Assembly (NCBI RefSeq): GCF_009914755.1
Contig: NC_060935.1
DNA: 64,000 bases
Strand: one strand, 5' to 3'
Source: the human T2T-CHM13v2.0 reference genome, Homo sapiens
Numbering within the stretch: the first letter of the stretch is position 1; the number at the start of each line of letters is the position of its first letter. Positions 53,617 to 59,596 of the stretch are shown here, piece after piece. A program made the position numbers and the translations under genes. The notes below the pieces were generated by a model. The model saw only the letters and a program-made list of their open reading frames with translations. It was not told the DNA's origin and searched no databases.

Positions 53617-53728
53617 CTGATCTGTTGTGGCTGCTGGTGGCAAAGTTGCTGAGAGTGAAAGCATCCGCAGGGAAGCCTCCAACTGCTGGGGAGGCAAAAA
53701 GAAGTTGGGCACCACAATGGGCCCTGGG
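53617..53728 (-). CDS. C2CD3: C2CD3 penultimate exon (PGPIVVPNFFLPPQQLEASLRMLSLSATLPPAATTDQ)
   Basis: 112 nt; TAG acceptor preceded by a U12 branch point; CAG|GTAAG donor. Confidence 0.9.
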
Positions 53729-55084
53729 CTACAATGGTAGTTAAGGGACAAAAATACCTAGAAGTCCACCCCTCTTGCAGTGGAGGCCAGCATCTCCACT
53801 GACCATTCACTCTGCCCCCACTCATGTTTTTCCCTCAACTATTCTTGTCCATAAATTCTTTGCTCAGCTGGCTCCCTCTGACTGGAAGGCTTGCCCACTC
53901 CTAACACATATAAGTTTTTTATGGATCAGTTCAAATCCGGCCTCCTCTAGGAAGCTTTCTCTTAATCTTAGCCCCACAGTGATCCCTCCTTCCTCACATC
54001 CTAGAGCAGTCTGCAACACAGGAGAATGCTTAATTATTTAGTCTGATATGATTATTTTCCTCAATCTTCCCTAAATTTCTCAATGGCACAGACAGTTTCC
54101 TTCTGTTACCTCTACTTCCTGAAAGCCCCTCAGGAGGCTGGCAGGTAGCAGGCGTTGAATGATTCTTGCCTAAGGGCCTGCTAGTTAGAAAAAGACCTAT
54201 TAGAAGTCAGTCAGGGGATGTGGGGATTGGGATGTGGCTCCAGGGGGCAGTGCCTTAGGCTGCATTTAGGTGCCCTGCACTGAAGGAGGGCCTGCTTGCC
54301 TATTTTCTCTGCTCACATTCAGAAATGAGAGCTCTGCATCAGGGGCTGTCCATGACGGGACATGTCCTCATGTCAGGGACCAGTACAGCTGGTCCAATCT
54401 GGATGTGAGCCCTAGAAGGCAGGTACTGTTATCTTGCACTTCTCCTCCGTATCTTCTTGAGGTGCTCAGTGCTGTGTTGAGAATATGGTGTTCTACAGGT
54501 ATTTTTTGAATCAAATCACTGATTCAGTTTAGTTGAACTCTGAAGGGGGTAAAGAGGGGACTATTTTGATGTTCCAATTTTTTGTTTCTGTTTAATAAGT
54601 ATGGTTCTCACTCCAATTTGCTTACCACATTTCCTATTTTATCGTCGTTCTTCTACATTAGACTCTAAACTTCAAGAAGGCAGAGATGATCTGTCTTTCA
54701 TAACCATATTCCTGTCACCTAGCATAGTACCTGGGAGACAGTAAGTACTCAATAAATATCTTGTGAATGAATGAAATGCATTGATTTCTTGCTTTGGTTC
54801 AAGTCCCTGATTTTTCTGTAGAGAGGTGGGGGAGGAATGGAGATCCCGAAGGGAAAGACCCTTTGACTCCAGGCCTTCTGCAGAGGCCCAGGTGAGGTAG
54901 GATCTATTTGCTGTTGCTGAAACTGCTGGGGACTGCCAGACAGCCAGCTGATGCTGTGGGGAAGAAAGAACTTTGCTGTGAGGTGTCAGGGCTGGCTCTG
55001 AAGCATGGAAGTCTCTTTCCCAGCCCATTGCCTCATGTGTGCTTTAGGGTCCTGCTCCAACAGGCACTTTCTCCCACCAACTTT

Positions 55085-55385
55085 TATTTTGTTATGTTTT
55101 TTGAAACAGGGTCTCACTCCCATTGTTCAGGCTGGAGTGCAGTGGCGTGATCATGGCACACTGCAGCCTTGACCTTCTGGGCTCAGGTAATTCTTCCACT
55201 TCAGCCTGCAGAGTAGCTGGGATTACAGGCACATGCCACCATGCCTGGCTAATTTTTGTATTTTTAGTAGAGATGGAATTTTGCCATGTTACCCAGGCTG
55301 GTCTTGAACTCCTGACCTCAAGTGATCCTCCCACCTTGGCCTCCCAAAATGCTGGGATTACAGGTGTGAACCACTATGTCTGGCC
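55085..55385 (-). mobile_element. Alu
   Basis: Consensus dimer. Confidence 0.88.
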
Positions 55386-57906
55386 TCATGAACTTTAAAT
55401 TCCTGTTCCTCAGTTCATAAAAATGTTCAAGTTTCCCATTTAGGGAAACAAACAAACAACCCCCTGACCTTGCATTGTCTTCTAGTTACCACCCAGCTCT
55501 CTGTCACTTACTAGATGGATAACTTCAGGAAAGTTCACTTTTTGTGCCGCAATTTCTCCATTTTTAAATGTATTAGTACTTATTGTTTTAAGGATTAAAT
55601 GAATTTATATATGTAAAGTGCCTAGAATGGTGCCTCGATAAATGTCAGCTATTCTTATCTCCTCAGTTTATGTGAAAAAGTTGTCTGTTCTCACTGTCCT
55701 CACCATTAGCTGCTTTGACTAATGAAGTCTGGCTTCCATTCCCACCACTGTAAGGTCCTCCTTAACACTAAAACCAGTGATACATGTCAGCCACATTCTC
55801 CCGGACCTGTGTGCAGCGTCAGTGCTGACCACGACGTCCTGAAACTCTGCAGCATCTGCTCCTACGGCACCTCTCTCTCCGCTGCTTCTCCCACCTCCTG
55901 ACCAGCTCTCCTCATCTCCTTTGTGGGCATGCCCTGTCCTGCTTCTCTTTGCACACTGGAGATGCTCAGAGTCTGCCTCTGTGTGTTTGGTTCCCCCTTC
56001 CCAGGCTCTTCTTGCTGCCCTCATCGACTCCCAGAGATGCCTACCTTTATGGCTGAGCTCAGCCCTCAACTTCACTCCTCCTGGATGTCCTACAGGCACA
56101 TGCCCCAAACGGCAATCTGCATCGTCTCCCAAACCTGTCTATGTGCTGTTTCCTATCCAGTAAATGATATCACCTGCCGGGTAACTTGTGACAGAAACCT
56201 CTAATTACACTTTCTATTTCCTTTGTCTCATCCCCTGCCCCTCTATCTAATCCTCTCAGATCTGTTCCCCTCGTCTTCATCATAAAGCAGTCTATACTTC
56301 AGGTCAGACTTTCTTCATCTCTTGTTATTATTGCAAGTGTCCTAACTAGCCTCCTTGTTTCTAGTCTTCCCTTACTTAACCTGCTCTCTACAAGGCACTG
56401 GGTGACTTCTTTTCTCATATGTACATCTGACCATACCACACTCTTGCTTAACAGTGAACACTATTCATGTACCAGGTATTGTGCTAGGCAGTTTACATGA
56501 TTATTTTCATTTTCATTTTCACAACAACCCAGTAAGTACTATTATCACCTCCATTTTACAGATGAGGAAAGTGAAGTTTCTTTGCTTTAGAATAGAGTCC
56601 AAGTACCTCAGCCAGGTATAGAAGTCCTTTAAGATCCAGGCCTTGCCTCACCTCGCACCATCCCCTCATCCCTGGACTCTAGCCACAGTGAACTACTGCC
56701 CACAGGCAGCCTCCTTCACCCAGCGAGGCCTCTGCACACACAGTTTGTCCTGACTAGAACTTTTCCTTGTCTCTATTGCACAATGCCTATTCATCTTTAA
56801 GGCCTGGCTCTCCTGTCTCTCTTACTGGGATGGCTCCAAGTAGAGTTAGGGCAGCTCCCTCCTCATGGTCCCTCGCGTTCTGTCCACATCTCATCACAGT
56901 ACTTGGCACAATAAACTGTCAGTATCTATCTACTTGACTGTCTCCTATCTCATAATGGGAACTTCTCGAGGTAAGGTCTCATTCAAATCTGTCCTTGGCA
57001 CCCAGCACAGGGCCTGGCACGATTTATTTTTGAAAGAATAGTCAGGAAGGCCTAAGTTAAAGCAGCACTTAGGGTCTGGGCACATGTGGCATCTCCTCCA
57101 TCGGCCATATTCTGAGCACAATTAATACTGACTGCAAAGGCAGCAACATTAGGGGCCAGGATCCAGGATGGGCAAGGCCAGGGAGAACTGCACACAAGGA
57201 GGTCTATTTTCAAAGCTCAGCCTCCAGCCATTGCATGCTTTAATCCTTTCCTGAGCCCACTCTCCCACCCCTAGGTTTTTCTCTGATCTGCATCAAGAAT
57301 CATACTGTGTGGTGTGTACAAATGTTTCCACTCATTTGGTTTTCTCAACAATGTTGTGAAACTGTGATAGTTCAATCCAATCTACATTTACCAATCCCTT
57401 CTCTGTGTAGTGCTAGGTCCTGAGGATGCAGAAAAAGACAAGGTCCCTGACCTGGGGAGCTTATAATTTGGTGGGTAAGGGATTTCCGCCTCCATTTTAC
57501 AGGTGAAGAAACGTGCACATAAAGATTAAACTATATGTCTATAATCACAAAAATAATTTTGTGGGTCTAGAAGGGTCAAAGTCAGGCTCCCTGACTTCTA
57601 GTAGAGGAAGATCTCTAGTCTAGTAAAGCAGCCTGCTTCACCTGCCAGCCGTACAATATTCCCTGCTTGTTGGGATAGCAGGTGAGCTGATCTGATCAGC
57701 TGGTTAGGCTACAGGTGTGAAGGCTGTAGATGGTCCTAAGTGGTTTCCTTTCCCCATAACATGCCAGTCTGTGTTTAAAAGGAAGGAGTGGGGAATGTCA
57801 GGTGCCCCCTGTTCCCATCAACAGTACCTTACTGGGGACTTGGGAAAGTCCATCTCCATGGTGCCTGTTTAGCTCCATCACTTCCTTTTTTAAAAAAATT
57901 TAATCT

Positions 57907-58195
57907 GGCCAGGCGTGGTGGCTCAAATGCTCTAACTGCAGCATTTTGGGAGGGTGAGGCAGGAGGATTGCTTGAGGCCAGGAGTTTGAGACCAGCCTGG
58001 GTGACACAGCAAGACCCCAACTCTTAAAAAAAATTAGCTGGGTGTGATGCTGCATACCTGTAGTTCTAGCTACTTGCAAGGCTGAGGTGGGAGGATCACC
58101 TGAGTATAAGAATCTGAGGCTGCAGTGAGGTATGGTAATAACCTTGTACTCCAGCTTGGGTGACAGAATAACCTGTCTCTTAAAAAAAAAAAAAG
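57907..58195 (+). mobile_element. Alu (old)
   Basis: Diverged dimer with A tail. Confidence 0.85.
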
Positions 58196-58668
58196 GCAAG
58201 TCACAATAACTGAGCATCAGTTTCCTTATATATGCAAAATAGGGATGATACCTACCTAAAAGACTTGTGATGACTGAATGAAAAATGTACATAAAGTGCT
58301 CAATGGCAGTGATTTTCTTTCCTCTTTCTCTAGACCCTCTGCTTCTCTTTCAACTGATAAATAGTCTCATTCCTTAGATCCCAAGCCTTGCCTTCAGGTG
58401 GTAAAATACCCAACAGATGAATTGGATAAATCAGGGTAGGCTAGGCTAATGTGCTACGAATGCCTAAACCCAGTTCAAGGCATTATGTTTCTGAGGGCTG
58501 GTGTTAATGGTAAAACTGTAGCACCTGTCATGCAGGTGGGGTCTTCTGAAGGAATGGTCTTTCCATGCCCCCTAGTGCATTCCATGAGGGTGGCCACTTG
58601 CTCACACTCACACTAGGCTAGTCTAAGTACCTGCATCCAAACCACTTGTGGGAAATGCCAAAGGATAC

Positions 58669-59596
58669 AGCAGGAGGCTCTGCTTTGTGGACGTCTCTGA
58701 TCCAGTTGTCACCTGCCTCTGCCTGATGTCAGAGGAGTCGATGGGTGGTCCCTTATGGTTTTCCCTTCTGCTCTGGGAGGCTAGATTTAGCGGCAACTTC
58801 TTGAAGCTATCAGCAGAGTCACCGAGCTCACTGGTGGCAGCTTCATTCTCAGCTGGGGCCTCTGACTTGGGCTCCTTGTTCTGATCTGTCTGTGGTGAGC
58901 TCCATCCAACAAACGTGCTGCTCTGTTGAGCTCCTGAGAGTGTTGGGCATGGGATGGGCTGAGGGTTGGCTGAGGCAGACTCGCCACCAACCCTGGCCTT
59001 AGAGGCCTCACACTCACAAGCAACAAGACTTTGGCTAGGAGAACCCTGCCTAGGCAGGTGGGGGTTGACAGCCCTTTCTGGGCTGGAGAGAAAGCTACTT
59101 TTGACCATAAGCTCCTCTCTGCAGAAAGGCCCTGGAGAAGGACAAGAGGGGCCTTCCCTCTGCACCTCGTCAGGCTGAGGGCTGATGACCTCACTTGTGT
59201 CTGATATGACACTAGACCAAGGGCTAGTTTTGTCTGTCACCGTGGTGATCTCATTTAAGGTCCTGGGCTCAATGATGTCTTCTTCATAGTCCTCATCACT
59301 GTAGGCTGGGCCTGCCTCAGTGTCTTCACTGCTCTGCATCCTTGTAATGGGTACTGCATGCCTCAGGGACTCATGGAGCATTCTTCCTCCATTTGAAGTC
59401 TCTTCGAGAGGAGGGGGTGATGGGGAATCTGTGCCTTTATCTGGAGCTCTTACCAATGGCTCATCTGGCATTGTGCATCGTTCTTGCAGTGCTTCTGTGT
59501 CCTGAGCATCTGGGAGGGTGGTGGCCTTGTTGCTTCTACTCCTGGCTCGGTGAGAACTCAAAGCTGCTTGCGAATCCCTGGTGATAGTCTGCAGAT
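58669..59596 (-). CDS. C2CD3: C2CD3 large exon (928 nt; low-complexity S/P/E-rich region)
   Basis: Core of the 338-aa ORF (DLQTITRDSQAALSS…ETSTKQSLL); CAG acceptor at 59597-59599; phase fits both neighbours. Confidence 0.92.

What the first reader, a model, noticed from the sequence alone, without database searches (positions are those of the whole stretch)
53723..58668. C2CD3 U12 minor intron with an offset, frame-preserving U2-type splice pair (twintron-like)
Seen: the penultimate C2CD3 intron has a perfect U12 donor GTATCCTTT (58668-58660) and a U12 branch point TCCCTTAAC (53748-53740) just before TAG|C (exon start 53728). A U2-like donor GCAG|GTACTT lies 38 nt into the intron (exon end 58631). 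A second acceptor CCCAG|GG lies 5 nt into the downstream exon (start 53723). Using both alternative sites adds a net 33 nt with no stop, changing …SLLL-P-GPIVV to …SLLL-YPLAFPTSGLDA-GPIVV. Either mixed combination (+38 or -5) frameshifts. Established: U12 consensus sequences, U2/U12 twintrons in other genes, and ciliopathy-like phenotypes from minor-spliceosome defects; C2CD3 is a centriolar ciliopathy gene. Inference: this may be a built-in major-spliceosome bypass that keeps the C2CD3 C-terminus when minor splicing is limiting. The alternative acceptor has a weak pyrimidine tract, and frame preservation alone has about a 1-in-3 chance.
Basis: partly seen in the sequence, partly recalled or inferred. 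Interest (0 to 1): 0.8.

Follow-up and report, generated by a model that had tools for sequence, protein, structure and literature searches.

The report
Known C2CD3 minor intron, incidental sites
The second-to-last C2CD3 intron is a well-catalogued minor-spliceosome intron, and the nearby in-frame pair of ordinary splice sites looks like a weak, poorly conserved chance arrangement, not a built-in backup route.

Summary
The intron 53729-58668 (- strand) has a perfect U12 donor and a CCTTAAC branch site 11-12 nt before TAG. A CAG|GTACTT lies 38 nt in and a CCCAG|G 5 nt into the next exon; using both adds a stop-free 33 nt.

The U12 intron is already catalogued, is conserved in mouse, and is retained when the minor spliceosome is impaired. 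The bypass idea is not supported.
- **Strength:** the alternative donor is weaker than 14 of 15 annotated donors in the window. The alternative acceptor tract is poorer than 13 of 15.
- **Competition:** a much stronger acceptor-like site lies 43 nt into the exon.
- **Chance:** such a pair arises at about 2.5-8.5% of random positions.
- **Conservation:** only 7 of 28 mammal-like read-through ORFs stay open to the equivalent site, with different spacing.
- **Transcripts:** 0 of 94 database proteins carry the junction, and no published list names it.

One patient dataset flags an up-regulated alternative donor in this intron, without coordinates. U12/U2 site switching is a known phenomenon. Low interest.

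The parts
53729..58668 (-). C2CD3 second-to-last intron, U12-type, GT-AG subtype (4940 nt in this assembly)
   Evidence: Sequence at both ends. Listed as a minor intron in the Olthof 2019, Cologne 2019 and de Wolf 2021 supplements.
58660..58668 (-). U12 5' splice site GTATCCTTT
   Evidence: It is the only RTATCCTTT in the window. All 43 read-through ORFs from other amniotes encode L-Y-P-[LSF] here.
53740..53748 (-). U12 branch-point sequence TCCCTTAAC
   Evidence: One of 3 CCTTAAC copies in the window. Published branch-site score 87.9; mouse has TATTCCTTAACT.
53729..53731 (-). U12 acceptor TAG; the exon starts at 53728
   Evidence: and the hub annotation.
58631..58668 (-). 38-nt stop-free stretch that would be added to the upstream exon if the alternative donor were used
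   Evidence: The in-frame TAG follows two codons after the alternative GT. The unspliced ORF is P0096.
58625..58633 (-). Candidate U2-type donor CAG|GTACTT (GT at 58630-58629)
   Evidence: 7 of 9 consensus matches, lacking +4A and +5G. U1 duplex -7.1 kcal/mol, top 5.4% of 6464 GTs; 14 of 15 annotated donors are stronger.
53723..53728 (-). Candidate U2-type acceptor CCCAG|G (AG at 53725-53724; the exon would start at 53723)
   Evidence: 12 of 19 pyrimidines upstream, interrupted by the U12 TAG; 13 of 15 annotated acceptors are richer. Panda and camel gene models imply the same AG in those species.
53686..53704 (-). Stronger acceptor-like sequence inside the downstream exon (CTTCTTTTTGCCTCCCCAG|CAG, offsets +43/+46)
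   Evidence: 16 of 19 pyrimidines. It lies in the conserved VPNFFLPPQQ codons. Paired with the +38 donor it shifts the frame.
58709..58715 (-). Donor-like CAG|GTGACA inside the upstream exon (offset -44)
   Evidence: 7/9, -8.1 kcal/mol. With the +43 or +46 acceptor it gives an in-frame loss of 87 or 90 nt.
58603..58614 (-). Further donor-like sites AGT|GTGAGT (+57) and AGT|GTGAGC (+63) in a GTGTGAG repeat
   Evidence: They lie beyond the in-frame TAG, so their use would include a stop.
53617..53728 (-). Second-to-last coding exon, which starts the conserved C-terminal 83 residues
58669..59596 (-). Large upstream coding exon
   Evidence: and the hub annotation.

Best explanation
This is an ordinary, conserved and already catalogued U12-type (GT-AG) intron of C2CD3. 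U11/U12 recognise GTATCCTTT and CCTTAAC, and splicing joins 58669 to 53728.

The GT 38 nt inside and the AG 5 nt beyond are incidental weak U2-type sites of the kind found near many introns. Their frame-preserving, stop-free combination in human is a lineage-specific accident, not a selected bypass.

When minor splicing is limiting, the main outcome is intron retention. That gives a stop after 14 extra codons. Cryptic U2-type use, if any, is minor. It is as likely to pair the +38 donor with the shared TAG or with the stronger +43 acceptor, and both of those shift the frame.

What is shown and what is inferred:
- **Shown:** the sequence signals, the retention in published datasets, and the conservation pattern in translated read-through ORFs.
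- **Inferred:** which cryptic sites the major spliceosome would choose.
For: **Identity of the intron**
- The U12 signals sit at the annotated borders.
- It is catalogued with published scores of 98.7 (donor) and 87.9 (branch site), and is conserved in mouse.
- Retention rises in several settings:
  - Taybi-Linder syndrome (TALS) patient cells.
  - The patient-sample retention table of Olthof 2021, where the intron is listed.
  - ZRSR2-mutant MDS: log2FC 3.13, adjusted p 2.8e-20, PSI 0.046 to 0.303, with no alternative-site flag.
  - DDX59 knockout.

**Weak alternative sites, with competitors**
- Chance rate is 2.5-8.5% per intron. With about 700 human minor introns (722 per the abstract), that predicts roughly 17-60 such cases by chance.
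- Several other in-frame pairs exist at the same intron.

**Conservation, from 28 mammal-like read-through ORFs**
- 15 stop after 8-14 codons.
- 5 are in another frame.
- 1 has lost the Gly codon that would hold the GT.
- 7 remain open to an in-frame D/G-A-G motif. In the six rodent-like ORFs that match cleanly (P0059, P0060, P0066, P0072, P0074, P0075) the extension is 21 codons (about 65 nt); five of these are among the seven, and P0074 is the one that lost the Gly codon. P0051 has 18 codons (about 56 nt); I did not work out the spacing in P0070. Human has 38 nt.

**No record of the junction**
- The hub annotation has no such exon border.
- 0 of 94 database proteins carry it. The canonical spliced ORF P0067 (63 contigs) and the unspliced ORF P0096 (31 contigs) are both present.
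- C2CD3 is absent from these lists:
  - The alternative-splicing tables of Olthof 2021.
  - The non-retention events in the searched Cologne 2019 files.
  - The main text, including Table 1, of Janice 2013.
  - The supplements of Norppa 2021 and the ZCRB1 paper.
Against: - De Wolf 2021 Dataset EV3 marks 'AD' (Whippet alternative donor, Pr>0.9, |dPSI|>0.1) as up-regulated within this U12 intron in CENATAC-mutant patient lymphoblasts. Retention there is unchanged (adjusted p 0.88). So some alternative donor inside the intron is used. The +38 site is the nearest plausible candidate, but no coordinates are given.
- A chance rate of 2.5% for one intron is not large.
- Three U1-like sites (>=7/9) lie within +/-60 nt of the U12 donor. 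Only 0.35% of random windows have that many.
- The L-D-A-G motif that holds the alternative GT recurs in translation in human, a rodent-like group and P0051, despite indels between it and the donor. This hints at some constraint on that element.
- The negative evidence is limited:
  - Protein clusters at 90% identity could hide an 11-residue insertion isoform.
  - Full-length proteins over 2000 aa were not searchable.
  - One Cologne file and one de Wolf file were not searched.
  - I had no junction database and no vertebrate DNA.
Confidence: 0.75

Rival explanations
1. The +38 donor is a real, low-level alternative or cryptic U2-type 5' splice site, but it is non-productive. It pairs mostly with the shared U12 TAG (+38 nt) or with the strong exon-internal acceptor (+43/+46). 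Either way the frame shifts and the conserved C-terminal 83 residues are replaced. The result is splicing noise or a loss-of-function by-product, not a rescue.
For: - 'AD up within intron' in the CENATAC-mutant patient dataset, with no acceptor event flagged in the 100-nt flank.
- In Cologne 2019, 10 of 21 U12/U2 switching events used a U2 donor with the U12 acceptor, and only 4 used both U2 sites.
- The +43 acceptor has 16/19 pyrimidines against 12/19 for +5.
- All frameshifted products stop in the last exon, so they would escape nonsense-mediated decay and could accumulate.
Against: - No coordinates exist for the flagged donor. It could be +57, +63 or deeper in the intron.
- A Whippet donor node can also gain signal from unspliced reads (my inference).
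- No alternative-site flag appears in the CENATAC-depleted HeLa or ZRSR2 datasets, nor in the Olthof 2021 tables.
Confidence: 0.3
2. The +38 donor and +5 acceptor form an evolved in-frame major-spliceosome bypass. It keeps the C2CD3 C-terminus, with 12 residues replacing one proline, when minor splicing is limiting.
For: - The pair is frame-preserving and stop-free in human, with a chance rate of about 2.5%.
- If both spliceosomes used the CCTTAAC branch site, TAG at 12 nt suits U12 and CAG at 17 nt suits U2 better. This is an inference from recalled rules on branch-to-AG distance.
- The AG at +5 is implied in panda and camel gene models.
- The same frame stays open in a rodent-like group and in P0051.
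- An alternative donor is flagged once.
- Precedent: the CCDC84/CENATAC switch raises the coding isoform in Taybi-Linder patient cells.
Against: - Both sites are weak and a stronger competing acceptor exists.
- 15 of 28 mammal-like ORFs carry a stop in the extension, and the spacing varies (38, 56 and 65 nt).
- The junction residue differs: human P-G-P against P-E-P in other mammals, including a New World monkey.
- When this intron is strongly retained (ZRSR2-mutant MDS) no alternative site is flagged.
- There is no annotated or database isoform (hub table).
Confidence: 0.07
3. The conserved element GGATGCAG|GT acts as a cis-regulator of the U12 donor and not as a splice site. It could form an 8-bp hairpin with CUGUAUCC that masks the U12 5' splice site. 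Alternatively it could act as a U1-binding site that influences definition of this region.
For: - A predicted 8-bp stem pairs 58670-58663 with 58638-58631.
- The L-D-A-G translation recurs in several mammal-like ORFs, and the first 9 intron codons (Y-P-L-x-F-P-T-S) are as conserved as the neighbouring exon.
- U1-like sites cluster near the donor.
Against: - The fold is not significant. Locally it is -14 kcal/mol with z -1.35, and 22 of 200 shuffles fold as well. In the 131-nt context z is +0.56.
- No nucleotide alignment was available to test covariation.
- P0069- and P0050-type ORFs imply changes that would weaken the stem (inferred from translation).
Confidence: 0.06

Closest known systems
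U12/U2 splice-site switching in human minor introns (Cologne et al. 2019, PMC6800510; e.g. CCDC84/CENATAC intron 5)
   Same: U2-type sites lie close to a U12 intron and could be used instead of the U12 sites. The idea that the major spliceosome can yield the coding isoform when minor splicing is weak is already stated there.
   Different: Those 21 events in 16 genes rest on reads. In the searched supplement files C2CD3 appears only as a retention event. At CCDC84 both donors are reported as highly conserved. Here the extension is open in only 7 of 28 mammal-like ORFs.
Nested U2/U12 twintrons (Drosophila prospero; SRSF10; the 18 human cases of Janice et al. 2013, PMC3564746)
   Same: Two intron types overlap at one locus, giving alternative isoforms.
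   Different: Twintrons are nested, with one intron inside the other, and have transcript support and vertebrate conservation. Here the candidate U2 intron is offset: its donor lies inside and its acceptor outside the U12 intron. It has no transcript support, and C2CD3 is not in the main text of Janice 2013.
Opportunistic cryptic U2-type splice-site activation next to U12 introns under minor-spliceosome defects (Turunen 2008, de Wolf 2021, Norppa & Frilander 2021 and Olthof 2021, as reviewed in PMC8329584)
   Same: Retention plus occasional use of nearby weak U2-type sites. About half of such events are in frame (47% in Olthof 2021). The review itself poses the problem of telling regulation from opportunism.
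   Different: None in kind. This is the class I file the candidate under, with usage still unproven for the specific junction.
Interlocked U12/U2 arrangements (MAPK8/9 exons 6a/6b, TMEM87A/B)
   Same: Partially overlapping, not nested, U12 and U2 introns.
   Different: Those involve mutually exclusive exons and tissue-specific annotated isoforms. Here there are only small shifts at both ends of a single intron.

Membership tests
U12-type (minor) intron, GT-AG subtype | 5' splice site /RTATCCTT at the exon-intron border | tested here: met
   GTATCCTTT at 58668-58660, the only match in the window. Published donor score 98.7.
U12-type (minor) intron, GT-AG subtype | Branch-point sequence TCCTTAAC-like, about 10-15 nt from the 3' splice site | tested here: met
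   TCCCTTAAC at 53748-53740. The branch adenosines lie 12-13 nt from the last intron base. Published branch-site score 87.9. The distance rule is recalled.
U12-type (minor) intron, GT-AG subtype | Dependence on minor-spliceosome components | tested here: met
   Taken from published datasets, not from my own experiment. Retention rises in TALS cells, ZRSR2-mutant MDS and DDX59 knockout.
U12-type (minor) intron, GT-AG subtype | Conservation of the U12 signals in orthologues | tested here: met
   Mouse 5' site and branch site are listed as conserved. 28 of 28 mammal-like and 15 of 15 sauropsid-like read-through ORFs encode Y-P-[LSF] after the exon end, which is the translation of GTATCCTT.
U2/U12 twintron or U12/U2 splice-site switching intron | U2-type GT and AG close to the U12 sites | tested here: met
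   CAG|GTACTT at +38 and CCCAG|G at +5. Both are weak.
U2/U12 twintron or U12/U2 splice-site switching intron | Transcript evidence for the U2-type junction | tested here: inconclusive
   - No annotated exon border (hub table).
- 0 of 94 database proteins.
- Absent from the published event lists searched.
- One 'AD up within intron' flag without coordinates.
- No junction database was available.
U2/U12 twintron or U12/U2 splice-site switching intron | Nested arrangement (one intron inside the other, or one shared site) | tested here: not met
   The donor lies 38 nt inside the U12 intron and the acceptor 5 nt outside it. It is offset or interlocked at most, as defined.
U2/U12 twintron or U12/U2 splice-site switching intron | Evolutionary conservation of the U2-type sites and of the reading frame | tested here: not met
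   Tested at the level of translated read-through ORFs only. 7 of 28 stay open to the equivalent motif, 15 of 28 stop earlier, and the spacing is 38, 56 or 65 nt. The AG at +5 is implied in two gene models. Nucleotide-level conservation was not testable.
U2/U12 twintron or U12/U2 splice-site switching intron | Shift towards U2 sites when minor splicing is impaired | tested here: inconclusive
   No alternative-site flag in ZRSR2-mutant MDS or CENATAC-depleted HeLa cells. An 'AD' flag appears in CENATAC-mutant patient cells. Only retention is listed in TALS and in the Olthof 2021 datasets.

The most novel reading that the evidence does not exclude
The human lineage created a working in-frame U2-type route across this U12 intron. 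A roughly 27-nt loss between T-S-G and L-D-A-G brought an older conserved GGATGCAG|GT element to 38 nt from the donor, with an open frame. The major spliceosome uses the next AG (CAG, 17 nt from the shared CCTTAAC branch site). The junction 58631-to-53723 therefore preserves the conserved C-terminal 83 residues and rises when minor splicing is limiting. That would buffer C2CD3, and so centriole and cilium function, in minor-spliceosome disorders. The 'AD' flag in CENATAC-mutant cells would be its first trace.
Probability: 0.07. Interest if true: 0.5.

Novelty: already known. Interest (0 to 1): 0.17.

Why it matters
C2CD3 is a centriolar ciliopathy gene, linked to oral-facial-digital syndrome type XIV and listed with Joubert and Jeune syndromes. 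Minor-spliceosome disorders show ciliary features. An in-frame major-spliceosome route would therefore bear on how much C2CD3 function survives in those patients.

On present evidence the intron behaves like any other minor intron: it is retained when the machinery fails. The nearby sites are of the opportunistic kind the field already knows. The practical value of this check is a short, specific list of junctions to look up, plus a warning. Gene predictors replace this U12 intron by surrogate U2-like in-frame pairs, as in the panda and camel models. That shows how easily such pairs arise.

Tried and rejected
- **RNA families:** an Rfam scan of the whole intron and its flanks gave no family at the gathering score.
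- **Protein searches for the alternative isoform:**
  - 'longer' (563-2000 aa), 'near' (176-562 aa) and 'shorter' on the last 50 residues gave 94 proteins, none with the +38/+5 junction.
  - Limits: clusters at 90% identity can hide an 11-residue insertion, and proteins over 2000 aa were out of range.
- **Literature:**
  - Main-text searches for C2CD3 with 'minor intron', 'U12-type', 'U12', and a six-term set found no paper describing an alternative U2-type junction in C2CD3. These searches do not cover supplements or subscription journals.
  - Supplement term searches in Norppa & Frilander 2021 and the ZCRB1 paper found no C2CD3.
  - Supplementary look-ups are now exhausted. File 3 of Cologne 2019 and file 9 of de Wolf 2021 could not be searched and may bear on the claim.
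  - The RBM10 paper reports C2cd3 splicing changes in mouse without details.
- **RNA structure:** a hairpin between the U12 donor and the alternative donor region is predicted but is not significant.
- **Genome-wide null:** I considered a null over all human U12 introns and dropped it, because no human genome or vertebrate DNA collection is available to the tools.
- **Splice-site scoring:** the MaxEntScan and SpliceAI models are not on the machine. I used consensus matches, a U1-duplex energy without enforced register, and pyrimidine counts. These are crude.

Full report
**1. Observation**

All coordinates are on the - strand.
- The upstream exon ends at 58669 and the intron opens with GTATCCTTT (58668-58660).
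- TCCCTTAAC lies at 53748-53740. TAG ends at 53729 and the next exon starts at 53728.
- CAG|GTACTT has its GT at 58630-58629, 38 nt into the intron.
- CCCAG|GG has its AG at 53725-53724, 5 nt into the exon.

Translation confirms the frame. The canonical junction reads L-P-G-P. Using both alternative sites replaces the proline with twelve residues and adds a stop-free net 33 nt. Either site alone shifts the frame.

**2. What the intron is**

It is a bona fide U12-type GT-AG intron, and it is already known.
- RTATCCTTT occurs once in the 64-kb window, at this exon border. One of three CCTTAAC copies lies at the proper distance from the annotated acceptor.
- The Olthof 2019 supplement lists the intron for human and mouse ('Both'), with donor score 98.7 and branch-site score 87.9 (supplement passages).
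- Cologne 2019 lists it among U12 introns, with retention events in Taybi-Linder syndrome (TALS) cells (dPSI 0.014, 0.0106 and 0.30) (supplement passages; file 3 not searched).
- The Olthof 2021 supplement lists it in a patient retention table.
- De Wolf 2021 gives strong retention in ZRSR2-mutant MDS: log2FC 3.13, adjusted p 2.8e-20, PSI 0.046 to 0.303.
- The DDX59 knockout study reports retention of the C2CD3 U12 intron (passages).
- C2CD3 is named as a minor-intron gene linked to Joubert and Jeune syndromes.

**3. Strength of the alternative sites, and chance**

*Donor.* It matches 7 of 9 consensus positions but lacks +4A and +5G. Its U1-duplex energy is -7.1 kcal/mol. That is in the top 5.4% of the 6464 GTs in the window, but 14 of the 15 annotated U2-type donors here are stronger.

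*Acceptor.* It has 12 of 19 pyrimidines upstream, interrupted by the U12 TAG. Of 15 annotated acceptors, 13 are richer.

*Chance rate.* I drew 200,000 random position pairs from the window. I asked for a donor with >=7/9 matches within 60 nt, an AG within 12 nt, frame preservation and no stop.
- This occurred at 2.5% of pairs, and at 8.5% with a >=6/9 donor.
- None of the 15 other annotated introns in the window shows such a pair.
- With about 700 human minor introns (722 per the abstract), roughly 17-60 such cases are expected by chance alone.

*Other in-frame pairs at this same intron*:
- +23/+5
- -44/+43
- -44/+46

**4. Competing sites and consequences**
- The best U2-like acceptor in the neighbourhood is not the +5 AG. 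It is CTTCTTTTTGCCTCCCCAG|CAG, 43-46 nt into the exon, with 16 of 19 pyrimidines. It sits in the conserved VPNFFLPPQQ codons.
- Pairing the +38 donor with that site, or with the shared TAG, shifts the frame.
- All frameshifted products terminate in the last exon. They would escape nonsense-mediated decay and lack the conserved C-terminal 83 residues.
- Retention gives a stop 14 codons past the exon end.

**5. Transcript evidence**

*Against use of the junction:*
- The hub's annotation has no exon border at 58631 or 53723.
- Three protein searches returned 94 database proteins. None joins the 38-nt extension to the next exon.
- The database does hold the canonical spliced human-type ORF (P0067, 63 contigs) and the unspliced ORF (P0096, 31 contigs).
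- C2CD3 is absent from the alternative-splicing tables of Olthof 2021 and from the non-retention events of the searched Cologne files.
- C2CD3 is also absent from the main text of Janice 2013 and from two further supplements.
- Four main-text searches found no description of such a junction.

*For use of some alternative donor:*
- De Wolf 2021 Dataset EV3 marks 'AD' under 'AS up within intron' for this intron in CENATAC-mutant patient lymphoblasts. The same row shows no flank event and unchanged retention (method).
- No coordinates are given, so the +38 site is only the nearest candidate.
- The same paper's CENATAC-depletion and ZRSR2 tables carry no alternative-site flag for this intron.

**6. 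Conservation**

No vertebrate DNA was available. However, the protein database holds 43 ORFs from other amniotes that run through the exon-intron border. They give the intron start in translation.
- All 28 mammal-like and all 15 sauropsid-like ORFs encode Y-P-[LSF] after the exon end. That is the translation of GTATCCTT, so the U12 donor is conserved.
- Of the 28 mammal-like ORFs:
  - 15 stop after 8-14 codons.
  - 5 continue in another frame.
  - 1 has lost the glycine codon that would hold the GT.
  - 7 stay open to an in-frame [LV]-[DG]-A-G motif.
- In the six rodent-like ORFs that match cleanly (P0059, P0060, P0066, P0072, P0074, P0075) the extension is 21 codons (about 65 nt). Five of these are among the seven open ORFs; P0074 is the one that lost the glycine codon. 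P0051 has 18 codons (about 56 nt). I did not work out the spacing in P0070. Human has 12 codons (38 nt).
- The stop-free extension and its spacing are therefore not conserved.
- The junction residue also differs. It is P-E-P in other mammals, including a New World monkey, and P-G-P in human.
- The AG at +5 is implied in panda and camel. Their gene models (P0058, P0010) use it with surrogate GT sites to bridge the U12 intron in frame. These are annotation artefacts, and they show how readily in-frame U2-like pairs can be found here.

**7. Mechanism and rivals**

| Reading | Probability |
|---|---|
| Ordinary conserved minor intron; the nearby U2-type sites are incidental; limiting minor splicing gives retention, with at most minor and mostly frameshifting cryptic use | 0.75 |
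| The +38 donor is really used at low level, but non-productively | 0.3 (overlaps with the first) |
| An evolved in-frame bypass | 0.07 |
| The conserved GGATGCAG|GT element regulates the U12 donor through an 8-bp hairpin or U1 binding | 0.06 |

The predicted hairpin is not significant. Locally z is -1.35 and 22 of 200 shuffles fold as well. In the 131-nt context z is +0.56.

One mechanistic idea favours the bypass. A shared CCTTAAC branch site would give TAG at 12 nt for U12 and CAG at 17 nt for U2. This rests on recalled rules about branch-to-AG distance and was not tested.

**8. Comparison with what is known**
- The concept is established. Cologne 2019 describes 'U12/U2 splice site switching': 21 events in 16 genes, 4 of them using both U2 sites. 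It includes CCDC84, where the U2 route raises the coding isoform in patients.
- The Akinyi & Frilander review covers nested, shared-site and interlocked arrangements. It also poses the problem of separating regulation from opportunistic cryptic activation.
- The C2CD3 candidate is not nested. It fails the conservation test and lacks transcript proof, so I do not file it as a twintron or as a switching intron.
- It fits the class of opportunistic cryptic sites beside a minor intron.

**9. Verdict**

The intron is already known. The alternative pair is real in the sequence but is probably incidental. Interest is low (0.17).

What remains open is cheap to settle. A junction-database look-up and the coordinates of the flagged alternative donor would do it.

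**10. Limits**
- I had no junction database, no vertebrate nucleotide alignments and no calibrated splice-site models.
- Protein clusters at 90% identity may hide an insertion isoform.

Noticed in passing
window 53686-53704 (- strand), inside the exon 53617-53728: A near-textbook U2-type acceptor (CTTCTTTTTGCCTCCCCAG|CAG; 16 of 19 pyrimidines; tandem CAGCAG) lies 43-46 nt into the coding exon, in the conserved VPNFFLPPQQ codons. With the exon-internal donor-like site at -44 it would give an in-frame loss of 87 or 90 nt.
   Followed up: partly
window 58608-58728 (- strand), +/-60 nt around the U12 donor: Three U1-like sites with >=7/9 consensus matches (-44, +38, +57) lie within +/-60 nt of the U12 donor. 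Only 0.35% of random 121-nt windows in this sequence have three or more. This is a post-hoc observation of unknown meaning.
   Followed up: partly
window 58642-58668 (- strand); proteins P0042-P0075: In translation the first nine intron codons (Y-P-L-x-F-P-T-S-[SG]) are about as conserved across 28 mammal-like read-through ORFs as the adjoining coding exon. That extends well beyond the 9-nt U12 donor consensus. After that point the sequences diverge by indels and stops.
   Followed up: partly
window 58631-58645 (- strand) versus P0059, P0066, P0072, P0075: Human lacks about nine codons (about 27 nt) that rodent-like ORFs have between T-S-G and L-D-A-G. This indel sets the human 38-nt spacing.
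   Followed up: no
window 53720-53728 (- strand); P0003, P0067 versus P0004, P0006-P0008, P0052, P0062, P0064, P0079: The residue after the junction proline is Gly in human (P-G-P) but Glu in the other mammals seen, including a New World monkey (Saguinus, P0064), and Asp or Glu in birds and reptiles.
   Followed up: no
P0058 (giant panda model) and P0010 (wild camel model): Both deposited gene models bridge this U12 intron with surrogate U2-like GT-AG pairs that keep the frame. In panda the junction reads ...Y-P-L-V-F-P-T-K-P-I-V-V. The models use the +5-equivalent AG. They are likely annotation artefacts at a minor intron.
   Followed up: partly
window 58631-58670 (- strand): A predicted 8-bp stem pairs CUGUAUCC (the last two exon bases plus the U12 donor) with GGAUGCAG, immediately upstream of the alternative GT. 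Locally it is -14 kcal/mol with z -1.35, which is not significant.
   Followed up: partly
PMC5270529 (mouse): RBM10 depletion is reported to change C2cd3 splicing in mouse cells. The passages I saw do not name the event.
   Followed up: no
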